Shown here in pieces: positions 12,396 to 61,855 of a DNA stretch of 64,000 nucleotides. The position numbers were made by a program, and so were the translations under genes. Source of the DNA: an uncultured bacterium (lineage in GTDB: Bacteria > Eisenbacteria > RBG-16-71-46 > CAZAMP01); contig CAZAMP010000025.1 in assembly GCA_964486455.1 (NCBI GenBank), positions 26 to 64,025 of the forward strand, in the 5' to 3' direction. Below the pieces are notes generated by a model, which searched no databases, was not told where the DNA came from, and was given only the letters and a program-made list of their open reading frames with translations. Position 1 is the first letter of the stretch. Every line of letters starts with the position of its first letter.

Positions 12396-14615
12396 CTAGC
12401 GGCCGCTCAGAACGGTGAAGCGGCCGCTTGCGATCGGACCCGCTTCGGGCACAACCTGCACGAAGTAGATCCCGGCGGACAGCCGCGTGCCATCCCAGCG
12501 GATCGTCACGGGTCCCACGCCGATCGACTCGGTGAAGGCGAGTACCCTTCGGCCGTTCACGTCGAAGATCTCGAATCGCGCTCGCCCCTGCGTTGCGCTC
12601 TGATAGCTGAATTCAAGCCGGCCGCCGGTTGGGTTTGGTGACACCCGAACGAGCTGCTTGTGTGACGAATCGATGAGATCTCCGGGACCCTGGCCGTCCA
12701 CCGAGTTGGTGTCGTCTCCACGACCCAAGAGAATGACGCTGCTCTCACCGCAGACGAGAAACCCATCGCCCGTCGACGCGACATCGCGGGGTCCATCCGC
12801 CCACGGGTACTCGACCTGCTCCCAGGTTAGTCCACCGTCTGCAGTCACCCAGACCCATTCATCGAACGGATTCGCGGTAACGCCGTGAAGCGAGTCGTAG
12901 AAATCAAGATACCAACCTTCATCCGGAATGGACTCCGTCCAGAGATCGCCGCCGTTCGTCGTACGGTAGATGCCGTTGCGCCCGACAACTACGGCCGTTG
13001 TCTCGCTCATCCAGTGCATATCGCGCACGTGCGAGGGATCCGGCAACCCCGTCGTGGAAACGGATGTCCAGAGCGCTCCACCGTCGACCGTCTTCCAGAT
13101 TCGCGGACTCCCCGATGAACTTCCTCCACCGGCGAAACCGACGTTCGTGTCGAGAAAACAGATCGCCTCCACGTCGTCGGCGCCGGGAATTCCCGTTCCC
13201 CGCTCTTCCCAGGTTTCCCCGCCGTCGGTGGAGTAGAAGATGAAGTGCTCGAGCACCTCGTCCCCCGTCGTCACCACGAAGCATGCGGTTTCTTCGGGAA
13301 CTGCAATGGCCTTGGCGTAGCCCATGTAGCCCGGTGCCAACTCATGGGAGATCCAGCTCTCTCCTCCGTCGGTCGTTCGTACGATGTTGCTGTGGCCCGG
13401 CGTCATGTACCCACCGGCCAAACCGAAGTCGTCGTTCAGGAATTCGATGCAGTAGACCAAGTTGACACCAGGCGTTGCCGCGGGGATCTCCCATGTCTCC
13501 CCACCATCGTCGCTCCTGAGCCAGCTCTGATCGCGCCCGCCGGCGAACGCCTTTCCACTCGGCAAAAGCGTCATCGCACGGAGATAGCTCCGTTCCCCGT
13601 CCTCAGGGCTGCGCGTGAAGTTCGTCCAACTCTGCCCCATGTCCACGCTTCGCAGAAGATCTCCATCGGAACTGCATACGACGAGCGCTCCGTCGGAAAG
13701 CATGTGGATGTCCGTGTAGCCCACGGTTCTAATCCTCCGATAGAGAATGTCCCAGTCCGGTCCATCGTTCTGCGTTTCCCATATCTCGGCGCCCTCGAGA
13801 TGCGTAATGACGAAGCGGCGCGACGCATCGATGAAGAGTGCTTCCTCTTGGTAGATGGGGCTCTCGAAGAAGTCGCCGTGCTTTTCGAACCAGGAGGCAC
13901 CACCATCCGTGGTCCGATACGTGGTGAAGTGTTCGAGCAGCCACCCGTTCTGTGAATCGAGGAATTGTATGTCGGTGAATGCCCCCGACTCCTGCACATC
14001 CGGGATCGGCTGCCACGTCTGGCCGCCGTCATCGGTCTGTCGCGCCACGTGCGAACCGACGACATATCCGTGCAGTTCATCCCACCAGAACTGGTCGTAG
14101 ATTTCTCTGTCAAACGGTGGCGGAAGAAGCGTCCACGTGAGTCCGCCGTCAATGGAGTGCAGAACGGCTCCGTGCCGCCCCACGACAGAGAGGGTGCCGC
14201 CCGGAATCTCCTCGATGTTGAAGAGTGGTCCCGTTGATGGGTTGGACACGGCGGACCAGCTCACACCACCGTCGTCGGACCGGAAGATCCCGGGGGGATC
14301 TCCGACGGCCAGCAGCTGTCCGGGACCCATGGAACGCACATCCCGGAGACCGGTTGTGAATGCGGGGAAGGAGGTCAAATCGATCCAGGTCTGACCGCCG
14401 TCATCGGTCCGCAGGACCGTCCCCTTGTCTCCGACGGCGTAGCCGGTGAGCGCATCCTCGAATGCCATGCCGTAGAGGCCGTTTCCTTGTGGTGTCGGGT
14501 TGGTCCACTCGAATGAGTAGTCGTTGGCAGGGAGACGTTGTGTCCACACGAAACACGTGGCGAGGGCGACGACCTGAGTACCGTAACGGAAACGATGGCA
14601 GCTCAATTCAGACAT
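12396..14615 (-). CDS. Secreted YCF48/BNR beta-propeller protein with T9SS/FlgD-like C-terminal domain
   Basis: More than 10 Asp-box repeats (TxDGGxTW); VSPNP...IFDVNGR...AGIYFVQV tail. Confidence 0.85.
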   Translation of the reverse strand: MSELSCHRFRYGTQVVALATCFVWTQRLPANDYSFEWTNPTPQGNGLYGMAFEDALTGYAVGDKGTVLRTDDGGQTWIDLTSFPAFTTGLRDVRSMGPGQLLAVGDPPGIFRSDDGGVSWSAVSNPSTGPLFNIEEIPGGTLSVVGRHGAVLHSIDGGLTWTLLPPPFDREIYDQFWWDELHGYVVGSHVARQTDDGGQTWQPIPDVQESGAFTDIQFLDSQNGWLLEHFTTYRTTDGGASWFEKHGDFFESPIYQEEALFIDASRRFVITHLEGAEIWETQNDGPDWDILYRRIRTVGYTDIHMLSDGALVVCSSDGDLLRSVDMGQSWTNFTRSPEDGERSYLRAMTLLPSGKAFAGGRDQSWLRSDDGGETWEIPAATPGVNLVYCIEFLNDDFGLAGGYMTPGHSNIVRTTDGGESWISHELAPGYMGYAKAIAVPEETACFVVTTGDEVLEHFIFYSTDGGETWEERGTGIPGADDVEAICFLDTNVGFAGGGSSSGSPRIWKTVDGGALWTSVSTTGLPDPSHVRDMHWMSETTAVVVGRNGIYRTTNGGDLWTESIPDEGWYLDFYDSLHGVTANPFDEWVWVTADGGLTWEQVEYPWADGPRDVASTGDGFLVCGESSVILLGRGDDTNSVDGQGPGDLIDSSHKQLVRVSPNPTGGRLEFSYQSATQGRARFEIFDVNGRRVLAFTESIGVGPVTIRWDGTRLSAGIYFVQVVPEAGPIASGRFTVLSGR

Positions 14616-14720: not shown

Positions 14721-14973
14721 CTCATCAAGATCTCTGTATCGTATGCACGGATTCCAGGGTTGGGCTGGATATGCGCCCGCGTCAGCGGATCAGGTGCAGC
14801 CGTTCAACCTCTTGCCATCGAGGCACAACAGTGGATGGACTGTGTGAACGCCACAACCCAAGCGTCTCTGCCGCGAAGGGAACATCGAGCGTATCGGCTT
14901 CTATCGCAGGAGCTGGTGCAGTCCTCCTACCGATACGTCGCCTTGATCGCCCCCCAGCTTCCATAGAAAGCGG

Positions 14974-14979
14974 TGTCAA
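14974..14979 (-). promoter_or_regulatory. -35 box (TTGACA) of the circle-junction promoter; the -10 box CATCAT lies at 16523-16528
   Basis: Joining the element ends gives TTGACA-17 nt-CATCAT. Confidence 0.7.
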
Positions 14980-15059
14980 GACTAGACTCCCCCATTCGCC
15001 CAATGTCGCGCACATCGAACGCCCGCCCCACCGAGATTTCAGTCCTCCCAATGCGCGAG

Positions 15060-15340
15060 GCCGCCAACTGCTCCGACCATCCGATTCCAGTGTCCTCGAG
15101 CTTTTCGGTTCTCAAGCACCTGGGTCTTCACCTCGATGCGGTGAACCACGCTTCCATCTGGGCCTCAGGGGCCATTGCTTCGTTCGGTTCTGTGAGGGGG
15201 CATATTCTGCTTATCGGGCCTCCAGTTGAACTTGGGGCCAGCGGGGCGCCGGATGCTTCCCCTCGAACACTCTCCCGGAAAAGATCGTCGGACATTCGGA
15301 TCGTCGACAGTGAGTTCGCTTCCCCCCATCACCGGGGAAC
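15060..15340 (-). ncRNA. Candidate bridge/seek RNA of the IS110 element
   Basis: Stem-internal loop-hairpin at 15194-15264 whose two loop strands match the insertion target (6/7 and 8/9); ATGGAAG (15151-57) matches the donor junction 7/7. Boundaries approximate. Confidence 0.6.
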
Positions 15341-15344
15341 TCCG

Positions 15345-16388
15345 CTAAATACGATACTTCTCCGGGCTGTACTTCTCCTTTGCCTTCCACATCGCCAGCA
15401 CGATCGCCGCGATCTTCCGGGCAATCGTCAGCTTGGCAAGGTTCGGCTTCGTGCCATTCTCTAACAAGCGATCGTAATCATCCCGGAGCGGACTTGGTCC
15501 AGCAACGCCCACCACGTTCGTCGCTGCACCCTTGAAGATCATCTTCAGCATGCGATTGTGGCTCGTGTTCAGACCCCGCGTCTGAACCACTCGACCTTTC
15601 ACCCATCTCCCGTCTTCACGAACCCAGTCGGCGGAGGAGCGCGTGACGATTCCAAAGCCGCAGTAGCTCCAAAACTGACGTTTCGTTCGGAACCGGTGAG
15701 GCGTGATCACGATCGGCAACATCTGCGCCACCCGAACCGGTCCGAACCCGGGGGCGGTCCTAAGTGTGCGCGTAACCTTGTGCCGTTGCGACTCGCGGAC
15801 CATGGCCTCCTTCGCCTCAGCCTTGAGTTCCGTCAGAACATCCAGCTCTCGATTCAGTAGCTCCACCGCTCGACGAGTGGCCAGGGGAAGTAGACAGACC
15901 CGCTTCGATCTCTGATGAGGCGAGTACGTCGCCTGACCTGTGCTTGGTACGCCACGAGATCGGTAGAAACTCTTGAGACGATTCTTGGTACGCACGACAT
16001 CGCGCGTCACCATCGTATAGGTTCGAGCCAACTCCCGTAGAGCGCGGAACCGTCCGGGGTCTTTGTAGACCCCTCGACCAACCTTTCCCGTACGGATACG
16101 ATCAGCGAGGCCATGCGCATCAATCGCGTCGTTCTTCGAACCCGGCTTCCATTCAGCCCGAAACACCACCATCTCGGACACGTGAGGAGAGAGAATCTCA
16201 TACAACCATTGGCTCCACTCCCCCTCCTCGATGCACAAATGACGATTCCCCGCGATCTGGCGCACGTACTCGACCAGTGCCTCGCCATTCGTTTCAATGA
16301 CGTCGCGCCGAAGCTGCTTGCCAGCCACGTTCAGAACGCTGAACGTGCAGCTAGTGGCGTGAATATCGGCGCCAAGGTATCGTTCCAT
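15345..16388 (-). CDS. IS110-family recombinase/transposase
   Basis: YLGADIH, CIEE, KNDAIDA (DEDD); PGFGPV, RF..KRQFWSYCG, TRSS, IARK; RBS AAGGAGG. Confidence 0.95.
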   Translation of the reverse strand: MERYLGADIHATSCTFSVLNVAGKQLRRDVIETNGEALVEYVRQIAGNRHLCIEEGEWSQWLYEILSPHVSEMVVFRAEWKPGSKNDAIDAHGLADRIRTGKVGRGVYKDPGRFRALRELARTYTMVTRDVVRTKNRLKSFYRSRGVPSTGQATYSPHQRSKRVCLLPLATRRAVELLNRELDVLTELKAEAKEAMVRESQRHKVTRTLRTAPGFGPVRVAQMLPIVITPHRFRTKRQFWSYCGFGIVTRSSADWVREDGRWVKGRVVQTRGLNTSHNRMLKMIFKGAATNVVGVAGPSPLRDDYDRLLENGTKPNLAKLTIARKIAAIVLAMWKAKEKYSPEKYRI

Positions 16389-17322
16389 TGCGGTCCTCCT
16401 TCGTTAGGGTGGGGACTCAGGACTGCTCGAACCCCGAGCATCTCCCTTTCGGAGGAGACCGCAATATCCGCGTCAGCCTCGGCCGACGGACCAACCGGAG
16501 GCTATGCGGACGTGTCTTTCGAATGATGCCTGCTTTTCAGAACCGGAATGGCGCATTTGTGTCCGCACGGAAGGCAATTCTGCCAGTACGGGCCGTAGTT
16601 GTACTGATAGCACAGCCCGTCGTCCGGATGCAGCACGGCCTTCCCGTATAGCGACCTGCAGAGGCGGATTTCGTGCCCGGCGCAATCCAAGGCCTCCCCT
16701 TGGCCGATCCGCGGGTCGTTCATGATCCTGATTCCACCATGACTGCCTGGATACATGGTGAAGAAGCCTACTCTCGTGAGACCGTCATAGTTCTCGGTCA
16801 CCGTGTAGCAGCCGTCGTACCACGTCACGGCGTTCCCGGTCCCGGACTCGGGCCAGACACCGTCGACGTCGTCCTGCGGGATCTCAGAACCTCCCGTACA
16901 GAGGGTCCAGACCCAAACTTCCACCGTCGGCTCGTACTGAATACCGAACTGAAGCCCGCCAATACCGCCGTGCTCCCCGTCTACGTCCGGCACGCCGCCG
17001 ACCAGGATCCAAGTGAAGATCGGTGTCGAGCGCGCAGTCACTGCAAGCATACACAAGGTCACGGTGACGGTCAGGCGGGGGGTTCGATCCGGATGCAGCG
17101 TGTCTTTCAGCGTCGCAAAAGCTAACGCGTTTTATTACAATAGATTAATTCGGGTTCAGCGATCGCTGATCAGAGGGAGCCCGGTCGGCGGCCCCTCACC
17201 GTTCCCGGCAGCCCGGCGTCGTGGCGGCTTGTCACCCGGCGGACCGGTCTGCTACCGTCATGCGCCCGCTGTTCAACCTGCGGGCACGGTAAGAAACCCA
17301 CCGAACGGGGAGGATGGGCGCG

Positions 17323-18492
17323 ATGGGCACTAAGCTCCGCATCGGCGTATTAACGGGTGGCGGGGATGTTCCCGGTCTCAATTCGTGTATACGTGCGCTC
17401 ACGTATCGGGCCATCGATGACGGCCACGAGATCATCGGCATCCGCCAGGGATGGGAAGGGCTCGTGCGCCTCCAGCCCGGCGATCCCGAATCGGAGAAGG
17501 AATGGCTGCAACCCGTTAGCAAGGAGAAGGTCAGAACGGTCGATCGATTCGGCGGCACCTTCCTTCATACCTCCCGGACCAACCCCATTCGAGTCAAGCG
17601 GAGTGATCTGCCCGATCACCTGAAGAGCCATCACGCGGGAGGGGACCCATCGGAAACCGTGGACGTGACGAACGACGTGCTGCGGACTCTGGAAGCCCTC
17701 GAGCTCGATTTTCTCGTCGTGATCGGCGGCGACGACACGCTATCGGTGGCCGTTCGTCTCGATTGGGAAGGCTTTCCCATCGTTTCGGTGCCGAAGACCA
17801 TGGACAACGACGTGAACGGCACCGACTACTGCATCGGCTTCTCGACCGCCGTCACGCGAAGCGTCAACTTCATCACCGACCTCCGGACACCGGCCGGATC
17901 GCATGAGCGGATCGCGGTTGTCGAGCTGTTCGGACGCTACTGCGGTGAGACCGCTCTGGTCACCGGCTACCTCGCCAGCGTCGACAGAACGCTCATCGCG
18001 GAAGTGCCGTTCGACATGCACAAGCTCGCCGACATGCTGGTAAGCGACAAGATGAGCAACCCGAGCCGCTACGCCATACTCGTCATGAGCGAGGGCGCCA
18101 AGATCGAGGGCGGCGAGATGGTAATCGGCGGCGAACAAGACGCGTTCGGACATCAGAAGCTGGGCGGCATCGGGGACCGGGTCGGCGCCGAGATCAAGCG
18201 GCTGACCGGACACCATGTTCTGGTCCAGCGCCTCGCTTACCTCATGCGAAGCGGCCCACCCGACTCACTCGACCGCCTCGTGTCGTACAACTACGGCAAT
18301 CTCGCCTACGAACTGATCACCGACGGCCGGAAGGGAGAGATGGTAGCGCTGCAAAACGGATGCTACACGACGGTGCGGGTCAAGACCGCCACGAACGGCA
18401 AGCGCCAGGTGAACGTCCCGGCCTTCTATGACACCGCGACCTACAGGCCGAAGATCTCCGTGATCCGGGGCAAACCGATGTTCCTGTACTAA
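17323..18492 (+). CDS. pfkA: 6-phosphofructokinase, PPi-type motifs
   Basis: TGGGDVPGLN, GGTFLHTSR, GGDDT, PKTMDND. Confidence 0.92.
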   Translation: MGTKLRIGVLTGGGDVPGLNSCIRALTYRAIDDGHEIIGIRQGWEGLVRLQPGDPESEKEWLQPVSKEKVRTVDRFGGTFLHTSRTNPIRVKRSDLPDHLKSHHAGGDPSETVDVTNDVLRTLEALELDFLVVIGGDDTLSVAVRLDWEGFPIVSVPKTMDNDVNGTDYCIGFSTAVTRSVNFITDLRTPAGSHERIAVVELFGRYCGETALVTGYLASVDRTLIAEVPFDMHKLADMLVSDKMSNPSRYAILVMSEGAKIEGGEMVIGGEQDAFGHQKLGGIGDRVGAEIKRLTGHHVLVQRLAYLMRSGPPDSLDRLVSYNYGNLAYELITDGRKGEMVALQNGCYTTVRVKTATNGKRQVNVPAFYDTATYRPKISVIRGKPMFLY

Positions 18493-60529: not shown

Positions 60530-61855
60530 CTAGTCCCTGAGACTGGTCCCGCACCAGGCGCAGTGGTCCCAGTAGTTGCCGGGCACTCCCCAGCCACAGC
60601 TATGGCAGGTGCGCGTCGCGCCCTGGAACTTCCAGGCGCGGCGCACTTTTCTGTGGCACCAGGGGCAGTAGCGCATGAACGGCATCAGCACCTTTCGGGA
60701 GCAGCCGGGATTGGCGCAGCGGCCGTCGTAGTGGCGGTCCGAGTACTCCTGGTCCGAGAGCGGTCCGACCCCGGGTCCGTAGCACCACGGGCAGAACTTC
60801 CAGTCGAGCTTCACGCCTCGGTGGCACCGGGGACAGGTCGCCGGGAATCGTGTGTCCGCGCGATGACGTTTCCGCTCTTTCCCGCACCACGGACACACCT
60901 GCATGGCCTCGGACACCGGGTCGCCGCACCGCTCGCACTCGAAGCGTGTCTGAAGCACGCGTCCGTAGCGACGCTTGAACTCGCGCACCCGCACCTCTTG
61001 CCAATCCTTCACGGGTCTGACCAGGGCCCGGCGGCGACGGCGGCGCGCGCCGTGTTTGAGGGTCCGCGCTTTGAGACGAACGAACGCGTCGCGCATCACC
61101 CGACCGTTGGCGAAGCGTCTTCGGGCATCGATCTCGATGGAGCGGCGCAGGAGCGCGATCATTTCGGCCGGCACACGCCGGCGCAGGTTCAGGTGCCCGG
61201 GCGGTGGCCACTCGAACGGCCACTCCGGCAGGCGTCCCGCGAGCATGCGATAGAGAACGAGCCCCGTCGAAAACACGTCCGAGCGAAACGAGAGCTTTCC
61301 CATCGCCTGCTCGGGCGCCAGATAGCCGACAGTTCCCGATCCCGATCCCTGGATCATCGTGCGCACGCCGAGACGGCCGATACCGAAGTCGGTCAGCCTC
61401 AGGAGCCGCCCGTCATCGAAGAAGACCAGGTTCGCCGGTTTGATGTCGCAGTGTATGACGCGATGCTCGTGCGCATGCGCGACCGCGTCGAGGATCTGCT
61501 CCGAGTACTCCAAGGCCGTCTTGACGGAGAGCCTCGTCTTGAGACGCTCCTCGAGTGTTCGCCCCCCGAGCGGATAGACGATCACGAAGATGTCGGTGAT
61601 GAAATCGGCGTTCTTGATCGGAAGGATGTTCGGATGATTCAGCCGAGAGTTGAGCCGGACCTCCTTGCGGAAGTCATCCAGCTCTTCCTTCGTCGCCTCG
61701 CGGAGGCGGGGCACCTTGAGCGCGACGTGAATGCCCTCGATGGTATCGAACGCGCGATAGACGTCCGCGAAACCACCGCCCGCGATGTGGCGTTCAATCC
61801 GATACTTGCCGAGCATCCGCCGGGGGCGGAGCTTCGTCAGACGCGTTGCGGCCAT
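60530..61855 (-). CDS. Hanks-type Ser/Thr kinase with four C-terminal zinc ribbons
   Basis: GGFADVY, VALK, HCDIKPAN, DFG, APE; four CxxC...CPWC units. Confidence 0.9.
   Translation of the reverse strand: MAATRLTKLRPRRMLGKYRIERHIAGGGFADVYRAFDTIEGIHVALKVPRLREATKEELDDFRKEVRLNSRLNHPNILPIKNADFITDIFVIVYPLGGRTLEERLKTRLSVKTALEYSEQILDAVAHAHEHRVIHCDIKPANLVFFDDGRLLRLTDFGIGRLGVRTMIQGSGSGTVGYLAPEQAMGKLSFRSDVFSTGLVLYRMLAGRLPEWPFEWPPPGHLNLRRRVPAEMIALLRRSIEIDARRRFANGRVMRDAFVRLKARTLKHGARRRRRRALVRPVKDWQEVRVREFKRRYGRVLQTRFECERCGDPVSEAMQVCPWCGKERKRHRADTRFPATCPRCHRGVKLDWKFCPWCYGPGVGPLSDQEYSDRHYDGRCANPGCSRKVLMPFMRYCPWCHRKVRRAWKFQGATRTCHSCGWGVPGNYWDHCAWCGTSLRD

What the first reader, a model, noticed from the sequence alone, without database searches (positions are those of the whole stretch)
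15060..15340. Candidate bridge RNA whose guides can be read against its own target and donor
On the minus strand, the outer stem GAGGGG..GCAU/AUGC.CCCCUC (15264-15194) encloses an inner GGCC-CCA/UGG-GGCC hairpin. The left loop strand CCCCGCU (15246-40) matches the target left half cccagCT (6/7). The right strand GAUAAGCAG (15215-07) is complementary to CTgcttttc (8/9). Both end on the core, as in IS621 bridge RNA. Downstream, AUGGAAG (15157-51) matches the donor 7/7, and GGUGCUU (15120-14) can pair with the other donor half using two wobbles across a UUCACC/GGUGAA hairpin. The two loops appear to read the core in opposite orientations. This points to a programmable RNA-guided recombinase with unusual loop layout; the donor-loop assignment is less sure.
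Basis: partly seen in the sequence, partly recalled or inferred. Interest (0 to 1): 0.9.

Follow-up and report, generated by a model that had tools for sequence, protein, structure and literature searches.

The report
Bridge RNA of an IS110-family element
This stretch is the guide ("bridge" or "seek") RNA of a jumping gene of the IS110 family, and its loops read both the insertion site and the element's own ends; it is a well-supported new example of a mechanism already described in 2024.

Summary
The finding is real, but it belongs to a known kind. Window 14958-16531 (minus strand) is a roughly 1.57-kb IS110-family insertion sequence. It has a DEDD transposase (15345-16388), a short left end and a long 3' non-coding end, which is the IS1111-like layout.

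The 3' end holds a two-loop RNA. The donor loop is 15189-15144.

[quoted passage not shown] Its helices show compensatory changes in 16 of 26 pairs.
- **Target guides:** across guide-distinct relatives, both target-loop strands covary with the DNA flanking each element (231/315 and 322/540 matches; 0 of 10000 shuffles reach either).
- **Left-donor guide:** AUGGAAG covaries with the element's right end.
- **Second copy:** its left flank matches the 7-nt guide 7/7.

GGUGCUU (15120-15114) lies outside both loops in a conserved GCUUC and shows no covariation with the donor. A better candidate for that guide is AACGAAGC (15184-15177). With that change, both loops have the same polarity, so the "unusual layout" disappears. 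The guide order is the one already published for IS1111-type seekRNAs.

No expression data could be obtained.

The parts
14958..16531 (-). Whole insertion sequence, including the AG core copy at each junction (A16531-G16530 on the left, A14959-G14958 on the right)
   Evidence: Ends were read. The left boundary is confirmed by a second copy: contig C63 ends with 55 nt identical to window 16535-16481, and its sequence diverges upstream of AAGCAG. In an 8-copy relative, identity between copies stops at the homologous positions.
15345..16388 (-). Transposase/recombinase gene, 347 aa, DEDD RuvC-like domain plus Tnp domain
   Evidence: Pfam PF01548 (E 1.1e-11) and PF02371 (E 2.2e-10). NCBIfam 'IS110 family RNA-guided transposase' scores 115.2 bits, below its cut-off of 140. 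A profile of 30 homologues hits the IS621 transposase 8wt6 at E 5.8e-07. D8, E54/E55, D87, D90 and S252 are invariant in the 30 homologues.
16389..16529 (-). Left end (141 nt), starting GCAUCAU. CATCAT at 16528-16523 is a possible -10 box of a junction promoter
   Evidence: the motif [AG][CGA]AT[CT]AT follows the variable flank in most relatives.
15194..15264 (-). Target-binding loop: outer stem, 13x13-nt internal loop and inner hairpin (15239-15217)
   Evidence: MFE fold. Outer stem: 6 of 10 pairs change on both sides. Inner stem: 6 of 7.
15240..15249 (-). Guide for the DNA right of the insertion point (GCGCCCCG plus CU). It is complementary to the element-sense top strand AG+CTGGGGGG, 7 of 10 in this copy
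   Evidence: positions -10 to -3 covary with the first 8 flank bases in 45 guide-distinct elements (322/540 against null 194.1 +/- 9.5; 0 of 10000 shuffles).
15207..15213 (-). Guide for the DNA left of the insertion point (UAAGC plus core AG). It is identical to the top strand: 6/7 to this copy's flank AAAGCAG and 7/7 to the second copy's flank TAAGCAG
Evidence: Second copy.
15206..15206 (-). Handshake-like position of the target loop, the first base after the core. In relatives it equals the first base of the left end. In this copy it is A against G, so not matched
   Evidence: 37 of 40 identical against null 29.0 +/- 1.7 (0 of 5000 shuffles).
15144..15189 (-). Donor-binding loop: stem AACCG (15189-15185)/UGGUU (15148-15144), inner hairpin GGCC 15173-15170 / GGCC 15164-15161
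   Evidence: RNAalifold proposed it. The stem has pair types AU, GC, UA and CG at one pair. 2 of 5 stem pairs and 2 of 4 hairpin pairs change on both sides.
15151..15157 (-). Left-donor guide AUGGA plus core AG, identical to the right end CTATGGA+AG. The next base, C15150, equals the first flank base C (handshake-like)
   Evidence: the variants ATGGA, ATAGA, ACAGA, CTAGA, CCAGG, TTGGG and ATGGC each go with the same 5-mer at the right end. 284/322 against a selection-aware null of 246.0 +/- 4.4 (0 of 2000 shuffles); the post-core base equals flank base 1 in 31 of 40 (null 20.0 +/- 2.0).
15177..15184 (-). Candidate right-donor guide AACGAAGC, 6 of 8 Watson-Crick pairs with the left end GCATCATT (discontiguous)
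   Evidence: the last base against left-end base 1 gives C-G 30, U-A 2, A.A 4, A.G 1. The G against left-end base 5 gives G-C 32, A-T 3, G.T 2. This register gives 61% pairing against 8-30% at eight other shifts. Evidence is moderate.
15114..15143 (-). Third hairpin (CACC 15143-15140 / GGUG 15132-15129) and conserved GCUU(C) 15117-15114. Its function is not explained
   Evidence: hairpin 58.7% paired on the MAFFT alignment; a GAAGC/GCUU helix is 75% paired but only 1 pair changes on both sides.
14960..14980 (-). Right end: CTTGAC (TTGACA 14979-14974, possible -35 box), imperfect sub-terminal inverted repeat, and terminal CTATGGA
   Evidence: CTTGAC-like motif plus 15 nt plus core is conserved. 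On a circle the arrangement is TTGACA, 17 nt, CATCAT (inference).
14950..14957 (-). Right target flank CTGGGGGG
16532..16538 (-). Left target flank GAAAAGC

Best explanation
Window 14958-16531 (minus strand) is an intact insertion sequence of the IS110 family with the IS1111-like organisation. Its 3' non-coding end encodes a bridge RNA (seekRNA) of about 120 nt or more with two internal loops.

**Shown by comparison with relatives:**
- The RNA's helices are kept by compensatory changes.
- The 5' strand of the first loop is complementary to the 8 bases to the right of the insertion point plus the core.
- The 3' strand of the first loop equals the 5 bases to the left of the insertion point plus the core.
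- The 3' strand of the second loop equals the last 5 bases of the element plus the core.
- The base after the core in each 3' strand tends to equal the first base of the other partner's right half. This matches the recombination products, like the handshake guides of IS621.

**Inferred from the homologous IS621 and ISEc11 systems:**
- The element excises as a circle that abuts CTATGGA-AG-GCATCAT.
- The RNA binds the DEDD/Ser recombinase.
- The first loop pairs with both strands of a target of the form ..UAAGC-AG-CGGGGCGC.., and the second loop pairs with the circle junction.
- Strands are exchanged at the AG core.

**Tentative:** the 5' strand of the second loop (AACGAAGC) reads the element's left end discontiguously.

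Seen from the + strand, the grammar is that of IS621: left guide 5', right guide 3', core CT, target loop before donor loop. The RNA and transposase cassette lies on the other strand.
For: **Protein.** Pfam PF01548 and PF02371. A profile hits IS621 transposase 8wt6 at E 5.8e-07, with the DEDD and Ser positions aligned.

**RNA conservation.** nhmmer finds the 3' non-coding end conserved, most strongly at window ~15270-15120. Model R1 finds the RNA on the transposase strand in 74 of 80 related loci (76 hits). It finds the RNA once in the own genome and in 2 of 40 relatives' genomes.

**Structure.** 91.3% of cells are paired against 83.3% in shuffles and 30-51% when slid. 16 of 26 pairs change on both sides, and 0 of 500 shuffles reach this. 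The result is similar on A2. G-U pairs are frequent (for example UG 13 of 52 and GU 15 of 52), so the structure is specific to this strand.

**Guides.**
- Left target guide: 231/315 against 130.5 +/- 9.0, 0 of 10000 shuffles, n=35.
- Right target guide: 322/540 against 194.1 +/- 9.5, 0 of 10000, n=45.
- Left donor guide: 284/322 against 246.0 +/- 4.4, 0 of 2000, n=46. A strictly defined right end with the same 5-mer is present in 39 of 46.
- Handshake-like bases: 37/40 and 31/40.
- Right-donor candidate.

**Second copy in this genome.** Its flank TAAGCAG matches the guide 7/7.

**Two elements outside the training set, read by eye.** In L093 the left guide is 7/7, the right guide plus core is 7/7 after a 1-nt shift, and a new donor variant UUAGGAG matches the end CCTTAGG+AG 7/7. 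In L094 the left guide is 7/7 and the right guide 9/9.

**Literature.** Bridge RNAs were predicted in the right end of 93.0% of IS1111 elements (PMC11208160). IS1111 seekRNAs co-purify with the transposase and have this guide order (PMC11187229).
Against:
- No sigma-70-like promoter or intrinsic terminator was found in 14800-16700.
- The window's RNA does not fold better than shuffles (z -1.17 and +0.81).
- No Rfam family matched.
- NCBIfam's IS110 model scores below its cut-off (115.2 against 140).
- This copy's own right flank matches its guide only 5/8 plus core 2/2, and its handshake-like base does not match.
- 11 of 55 guide sets have AA in the target guide but AG in the donor guide, so either the register or the core rule is not fully understood.
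- The right-donor guide rests on only two variable columns.
- The shuffles treat related elements as independent, which overstates significance.
- For one search the right end was chosen with help of the donor guide, not of the tested guide.
- 6 of 80 loci have no RNA hit. L053 and L074 run out of contig. L030 and L073 are partial genes. L031 and L079 are unexplained.
Confidence: 0.88

Rival explanations
1. The RNA guides target choice only (the seekRNA view). The second loop is a protein-binding scaffold, and the element's ends are recognised by the transposase through the sub-terminal inverted repeats, not by RNA pairing.
For: The 5' strand of the second loop is almost invariant, and its match to the left end is only 3-6 of 8, mostly 5 of 8. 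Siddiquee et al. suggest that end recognition may differ between the families (PMC11187229, section 6). The short seekRNAs they purified (82-96 nt) would cover little more than the first loop (review table).
Against: The 3' strand of the second loop follows every variant of the right end seen: 7 different 5-mers, plus UUAGG in the held-out L093. Two columns of the 5' strand change together with left-end bases 1 and 5, exactly on the antiparallel diagonal. The second loop has the same build as the first.
Confidence: 0.08
2. The donor loop spans the third hairpin, with AUGGAAG on its 5' side and GGUGCUU (15120-15114) on its 3' side, so the two loops have opposite polarity.
For: In the window, GGUGCUU can pair with AGGCAUC using 5 Watson-Crick and 2 wobble pairs. 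GCUU(C) is conserved in most relatives.
Against: Only GCUU is conserved. The three bases before it vary without keeping pairing, and elements with a different left end or core (ACATCAT with core CG) have GACUUC, which cannot pair (inspection, not a formal test). AUGGAAG sits in a loop closed by AACCG/UGGUU, which has compensatory changes. That leaves no role for a strand beyond the third hairpin.
Confidence: 0.03
3. The structure acts as single-stranded DNA of the element, with guide sequences read at the DNA level as in IS200/IS605, rather than as RNA.
For: Sequence comparison cannot tell RNA from single-stranded DNA of the same strand. No expression data were available.
Against: The protein is a homologue of IS621 and of the IS1111-family recombinases, for which the guide was shown to be RNA (PMC11208160 and PMC11187229). 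It shows no similarity to HUH transposases.
Confidence: 0.01

Closest known systems
IS1111-type seekRNA / bridge RNA (ISEc11, ISPa11, ISKpn4; Siddiquee et al. 2024, PMC11187229; predicted in 93.0% of IS1111 elements by Durrant et al. 2024, PMC11208160)
   Same: - The guide RNA is encoded in a long non-coding end downstream of the transposase gene.
- The segment complementary to the top strand lies 5' of the segment complementary to the bottom strand.
- The two matches overlap at the insertion point.
- Sub-terminal inverted repeats are present.
- Conserved boxes are placed to form a junction promoter on a circle.
   Different: - The protein is divergent. It scores below the NCBIfam cut-off and gives no single-sequence match to any solved structure.
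- The conserved Ser is followed by Ala here (Ser in the consensus) instead of Gly.
- The donor-reading bases sit in a simple internal loop, whereas Durrant et al. describe a multi-loop for many IS1111 orthologues.
- Whether it belongs to the IS1111 clade by tree was not tested.
IS621 bridge RNA (Durrant et al. 2024; Hiraizumi et al. 2024, PMC11208158)
   Same: - Two internal loops, with the target loop first and the donor loop second.
- Each loop reads both DNA strands around a 2-nt core.
- One donor guide pairs discontiguously.
- One or two handshake positions next to the core-pairing bases match the other DNA partner.
- The recombinase has DEDD plus Ser.
- Read on the + strand, the core is CT and the order is left guide 5', right guide 3'.
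   Different: - The RNA is at the 3' side of the gene and on the strand opposite to the IS621-style 'top' strand.
- Guide lengths differ: 5+2 and 8+2 nt here, against 9 and 4 nt used for IS621.
- The protein matches IS621 only at profile level (E 5.8e-07).

Membership tests
IS110-family bridge/seek RNA system | DEDD (RuvC-like) plus Tnp-domain recombinase | tested here: met
   PF01548 (45.2 bits) and PF02371 (41.2 bits), both above their cut-offs. A profile hits IS621 8wt6.
IS110-family bridge/seek RNA system | Catalytic D, E, D, D and Ser conserved | tested here: met
   D8, E54/E55, D87, D90 and S252 are invariant in 30 homologues. They align with the GIDTA, CIEA, KTDTVDA and ESG positions of IS621. 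The IS621 residue numbers come from PMC11208158.
IS110-family bridge/seek RNA system | Structured non-coding RNA with two internal loops in the long non-coding end | tested here: met
   (74 of 80 loci).
IS110-family bridge/seek RNA system | Target-loop strands covary with both flanks of the insertion | tested here: met
   the second copy and the held-out elements.
IS110-family bridge/seek RNA system | Donor-loop strands match both ends of the element | tested here: inconclusive
   The left-donor guide is met. The right-donor guide is only moderately supported.
IS110-family bridge/seek RNA system | The same 2-nt core at both junctions and in the guides | tested here: met
   In the window, AG is found at 16531-16530 and 14959-14958, in the left target guide and in the left donor guide, with CU in the right target guide. 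In relatives, 20 of 55 guide sets read AG/AG/CU. 11 of 55 read AA in the target guide against AG in the donor guide.
IS110-family bridge/seek RNA system | RNA is expressed and bound by the recombinase, and loops are reprogrammable | not testable with these tools
IS1111 group | Long non-coding region downstream of the transposase gene | tested here: met
   The left end is 141 nt (16529-16389). The right end is 385 nt (15344-14960).
IS1111 group | Sub-terminal inverted repeats of 7-17 bp | tested here: inconclusive
   In the window, CATTCGAAAG pairs with CTTTCTATG, imperfectly (one indel); the repeat finder did not list it. In relatives such as L036 there is a perfect 8-bp CATAGGGG/CCCCTATG (by eye).
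IS1111 group | Top-strand match 5' of bottom-strand match in the RNA | tested here: met
   The criterion comes from PMC11187229.
IS1111 group | Transposase in the IS1111 clade, with C-terminal motif GL-P----S(t)G | tested here: inconclusive
   The motif here is GFGIVTRSSA: Ser is kept and Gly is replaced. No tree with ISfinder references could be made.
NCBIfam NF033542 (IS110 family RNA-guided transposase, equivalog) | Score at or above the curated cut-off of 140 bits | tested here: not met
   115.2 bits over the full length.
Rfam families | Match to any curated RNA family | tested here: not met
   The only hit is a chance-level SpR20 match elsewhere, at E 0.29.

The most novel reading that the evidence does not exclude
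This clade was found here in genome bins labelled Gemmatimonadota, Myxococcota, Acidobacteriota and others. It may be a distinct branch of the family in which the whole IS621 grammar can be read from natural variation in a 3'-encoded RNA: four guides, a 2-nt core and handshake positions.

If so, the 'reversed order' of IS1111-type guides is simply the IS621 architecture with the RNA and transposase cassette turned over relative to the recombination site. It would also mean that IS1111-type elements read their own ends by RNA.

With 54 distinct natural guide pairs seen here, the clade would be a ready-made set of orthogonal programmable recombinases.
Probability: 0.4. Interest if true: 0.5.

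Novelty: new member of a known kind. Interest (0 to 1): 0.35.

Why it matters
The result shows that a reader working from raw sequence can spot a genuine bridge RNA. It also gives a clean natural data set: one RNA family with 54 different guide pairs whose targets can be checked against real insertion sites.

For people who mine bridge recombinases, this points to a compact 347-aa enzyme from lineages that are little studied. All guide positions are mapped, including likely handshake bases. The work also clarifies how the IS1111-type layout relates to IS621.

It does not reveal a new mechanism.

Tried and rejected
- **Folding the window's RNA alone** gave no signal above shuffles.
- **Rfam** gave nothing.
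- **Promoter and terminator scan** found nothing.
- **The repeat finder** did not report a terminal or sub-terminal inverted repeat among its 25 longest pairs. The imperfect repeat was seen only by eye.
- **My first donor-loop model** closed the loop with GAAGC/GCUUC and a UGGUUC/GAAC hairpin. I dropped it. The GAAGC/GCUU helix has only 1 pair with changes on both sides, while AACCG/UGGUU has compensatory changes.
- **Searching the own genome for an 'ideal' target** predicted from the guides gave no perfect site and fewer hits than the reversed control (74+78 against 193+186 at up to 3 mismatches), so it was not informative.
- **The right junction of the second copy** was not found in the assembly.
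- **Single-sequence search of solved structures** found nothing. Only the profile did.
- **nhmmer with the window's ends as single queries** recovered few ends (23 left, 6 right), so ends were located by motifs instead.
- **Rows dropped or failing.** Of 80 loci plus the window, 71 gave parsed target loops with 54 distinct guide pairs. Only 35 of these had a usable left flank and 45 a usable right flank. Mis-parsed rows (L023 with a deleted loop, L048 with a wrong left end, L026) were left in the counts. L068 (internal duplication), L023, L044 and other duplicates were left out of alignment A3.
- **Not done.** No tree against ISfinder references, and no formal test of GGUGCUU against the donor, because the script machine was lost. 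Supplements of the papers were not seen. Durrant et al.'s Supplementary Table 5 and Extended Data Fig. 10 may already include relatives of this element.

Full report
**What is there.** ORF 15345-16388 (-) encodes a 347-aa protein with Pfam DEDD_Tnp_IS110 and Transposase_20. NCBIfam's 'IS110 family RNA-guided transposase' aligns over the full length but scores 115.2 bits, below its cut-off of 140. A single-sequence search of solved structures found nothing. A profile of 30 homologues (A1) hit the IS621 transposase (8wt6, E 5.8e-07) and the ISCro4 transposase. The invariant D8, E54/55, D87, D90 and S252 align to the IS621 catalytic positions named in PMC11208158 (passages). The Ser is followed by Ala (Ser in the consensus), not Gly.

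**Ends.**
- On the minus strand the left junction reads ..ggttctgaaaagc-AG-gcatcattcg.. (AG = 16531-16530).
- The right junction reads ..ctttctatgga-AG-ctgggggg.. (AG = 14959-14958).
- The own genome (107 contigs) holds a second left junction. Contig C63 ends with 55 nt identical to window 16535-16481 and has a different flank..cctatt, in front of aagcag. The right end of that copy is not in the assembly.
- In a relative with 8 copies, identity between copies stops at the homologous positions, and the flanks are similar only for about 8 nt.
- The left end is 141 nt and the right end 385 nt, which is the IS1111-like layout (PMC11187229 section 6; PMC11208160 passages).
- The right end carries CTTGAC 15 nt before the core, and the left end starts G-CATCAT. 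On a circle this gives TTGACA, 17 nt, CATCAT. This is an inferred junction promoter of the kind described for this family (PMC11187229 section 12; review PMC13604230).

**Relatives.** The protein has thousands of homologues (3650 at E <= 0.001 among the 8000 scored). A scan of genome contigs returned 80 loci (of 591 confirmed). They come from bins labelled Gemmatimonadota, Myxococcota/deltaproteobacteria, Acidobacteriota and others, at 48-76% protein identity. nhmmer with the window's 3' non-coding end hit almost all of them, most strongly over window ~15270-15120.

**Structure.** MAFFT alignments show conserved stems that bracket hypervariable strands. RNAalifold and my counts support four helices:
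- target-loop outer stem (6 of 10 pairs change on both sides)
- target-loop inner stem (6 of 7)
- donor-loop stem AACCG/UGGUU (2 of 5, with AU, GC, UA and CG types at one pair)
- donor-loop hairpin GGCC/GGCC (2 of 4)

Overall, 91.3% of cells are paired, against 83.3% in shuffles and 30-51% when slid. 16 of 26 pairs change on both sides, and 0 of 500 shuffles reach this (similar on A2). Frequent G-U pairs make the fold strand-specific.

A covariance model (R1) gave these results:
- The RNA is found in 74 of 80 loci, always on the transposase strand. Of the misses, 2 run out of contig, 2 are partial genes and 2 are unexplained.
- It is found once in the own genome and once in the window at 115.2 bits.
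- It is found in 2 of 40 relatives' genomes. This is the patchy spread of a mobile element.

**Guides against DNA.** I parsed the loop strands, left ends and right ends by motif anchors. I counted one element per distinct guide pair and shuffled flanks among elements as the control.

1. *3' strand of the first loop against the 9 bases before the left end.* 231 of 315 are identical against 130.5 +/- 9.0 (maximum 169; 0 of 10000 shuffles; n=35). Only positions 3-9 carry signal, so the guide is 5 nt plus the 2-nt core. The window's UAAGCAG matches its own flank 6/7 and the second copy's flank 7/7.

2. *5' strand against the reverse complement of core plus 10 flank bases.* 322 of 540 against 194.1 +/- 9.5 (maximum 232; 0 of 10000 shuffles; n=45). 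Signal lies at positions -10 to -3. The last two bases (mostly CU) are conserved. The window matches 5/8 plus 2/2. Some elements show a 1-nt register shift.

3. *3' strand of the second loop against the last 5 bases of the element plus core.* 284 of 322 against 246.0 +/- 4.4. This control repeats the choice of the right end for every shuffle (0 of 2000; n=46). Seven different 5-mers each go with the same 5-mer at the end. With a strictly defined right end, 39 of 46 are identical, 2 differ by one base and 5 have no usable end.

4. *The base after the core.* In the first loop's 3' strand it equals the first base of the left end in 37 of 40 (null 29.0 +/- 1.7). In the second loop's 3' strand it equals the first flank base in 31 of 40 (null 20.0 +/- 2.0). 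Both reach 0 of 5000 shuffles. The second base after the core is weak or not significant. These positions behave like the handshake guides of IS621 (PMC11208158 passages).

5. *5' strand of the second loop (AACGAAGC).* It pairs with the left end GCATCATT at 61% of positions in one register, against 8-30% in eight others. Two of its columns change with left-end bases 1 and 5, exactly on the antiparallel diagonal. I take it as the likely right-donor guide, pairing discontiguously. Durrant et al. report discontiguous pairing for the IS621 right-donor guide.

**Held-out checks by eye.** Two elements found only by the RNA model carry guides that do not occur in the earlier lists.
- *L093:* left guide 7/7; right guide plus core 7/7 after a 1-nt shift; a new donor variant UUAGGAG against the end CCTTAGG+AG, 7/7; both handshake-like bases matched.
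- *L094:* left guide 7/7 and right guide 9/9, but with two extra bases between the end and the predicted flank. The donor-loop column follows the left-end base 5 (A with T).

GGUGCUU (15120-15114) lies beyond a third hairpin, outside both loops. In relatives only GCUU(C) is kept, and the bases before it do not keep pairing. Elements with ACATCAT and core CG have GACUUC there (inspection only). With the donor loop placed at 15189-15144, both loops have the same polarity. In element sense this is the published IS1111 order (PMC11187229 abstract and sections 9 and 12). Read on the + strand it is the IS621 order with core CT (PMC11208160 passages).

**Limits.**
- The shuffles ignore relatedness.
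- The AA/AG discrepancy in 11 of 55 guide sets is unexplained, as is the role of GCUUC.
- Placement in the IS1111 clade was not tested by a tree.
- The script machine was lost.
- Supplements of the papers were not seen.

**Verdict.** This is a genuine, intact IS110-family element with a 3' bridge/seek RNA. The right-donor guide is re-assigned, and the layout is ordinary for its type. It is a new member of a known kind.

Noticed in passing
window 14974-14979 and 16523-16528: TTGACA in the right end and CATCAT in the left end would lie 17 nt apart on a circular junction. This is a likely junction promoter. Both boxes and their spacing are conserved in relatives.
   Followed up: partly
L002 (own genome, contig C63) 1500-1555: The contig ends with 55 nt of the element's left end behind a different flank. 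This indicates a second copy (or a variant in the population) that the assembly did not resolve. The same locus holds long G runs and a run of N about 330 nt upstream.
   Followed up: partly
window 16532-17062 (-): The element sits 10 codons before the stop of a 187-codon open frame with no Pfam match, and it replaces that frame's C-terminal residues. Whether this frame is a real gene was not tested.
   Followed up: partly
relatives such as L036, L047, L049, L055 (left junction ..GGATAA|GCATCAT, right junction ..CTATGGA|AG): In 11 of 55 guide sets the target guide ends in AA while the donor guide ends in AG, and the two junctions differ in the same way. Either the left end is 1 nt shorter in this subgroup or the core rule is looser than in IS621.
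   Followed up: partly
L094 1850-1880: In this copy two extra bases (CT) lie between the right end AATAGAA and the flank predicted by the guide (GGTTCGTAA). This may be a damaged junction.
   Followed up: no
window 15114-15117 and homologous positions: GCUU(C) after the third hairpin is conserved. It could pair with GAAGC in either strand of the donor loop, which would be a possible alternative conformation. Covariation is too weak to say.
   Followed up: partly
L013 and L014: Each of these loci holds two RNA hits about 2.1-2.2 kb apart, so copies of the element lie close together in that genome. Seven of its eight copies sit in the same repeated palindromic sequence.
   Followed up: no
window 12396-14615 (-) and 17314-18492 (+): The neighbours are a 739-aa BNR/Sortilin-repeat protein with a weak Por secretion tail match (26.3 bits, just under its cut-off of 27) and a phosphofructokinase. 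Both are ordinary chromosomal genes.
   Followed up: no
protein P0001 residues 117-285: There is a sub-threshold NCBIfam match to the TIGR-Tas RNA-guided endonuclease model (56.7 bits, cut-off 100). This fits the published kinship of IS110 transposases with other RNA-guided proteins.
   Followed up: no
window 61651-61776 (-): A weak hit of the RNA model (11 bits, E 0.3), most likely noise.
   Followed up: no
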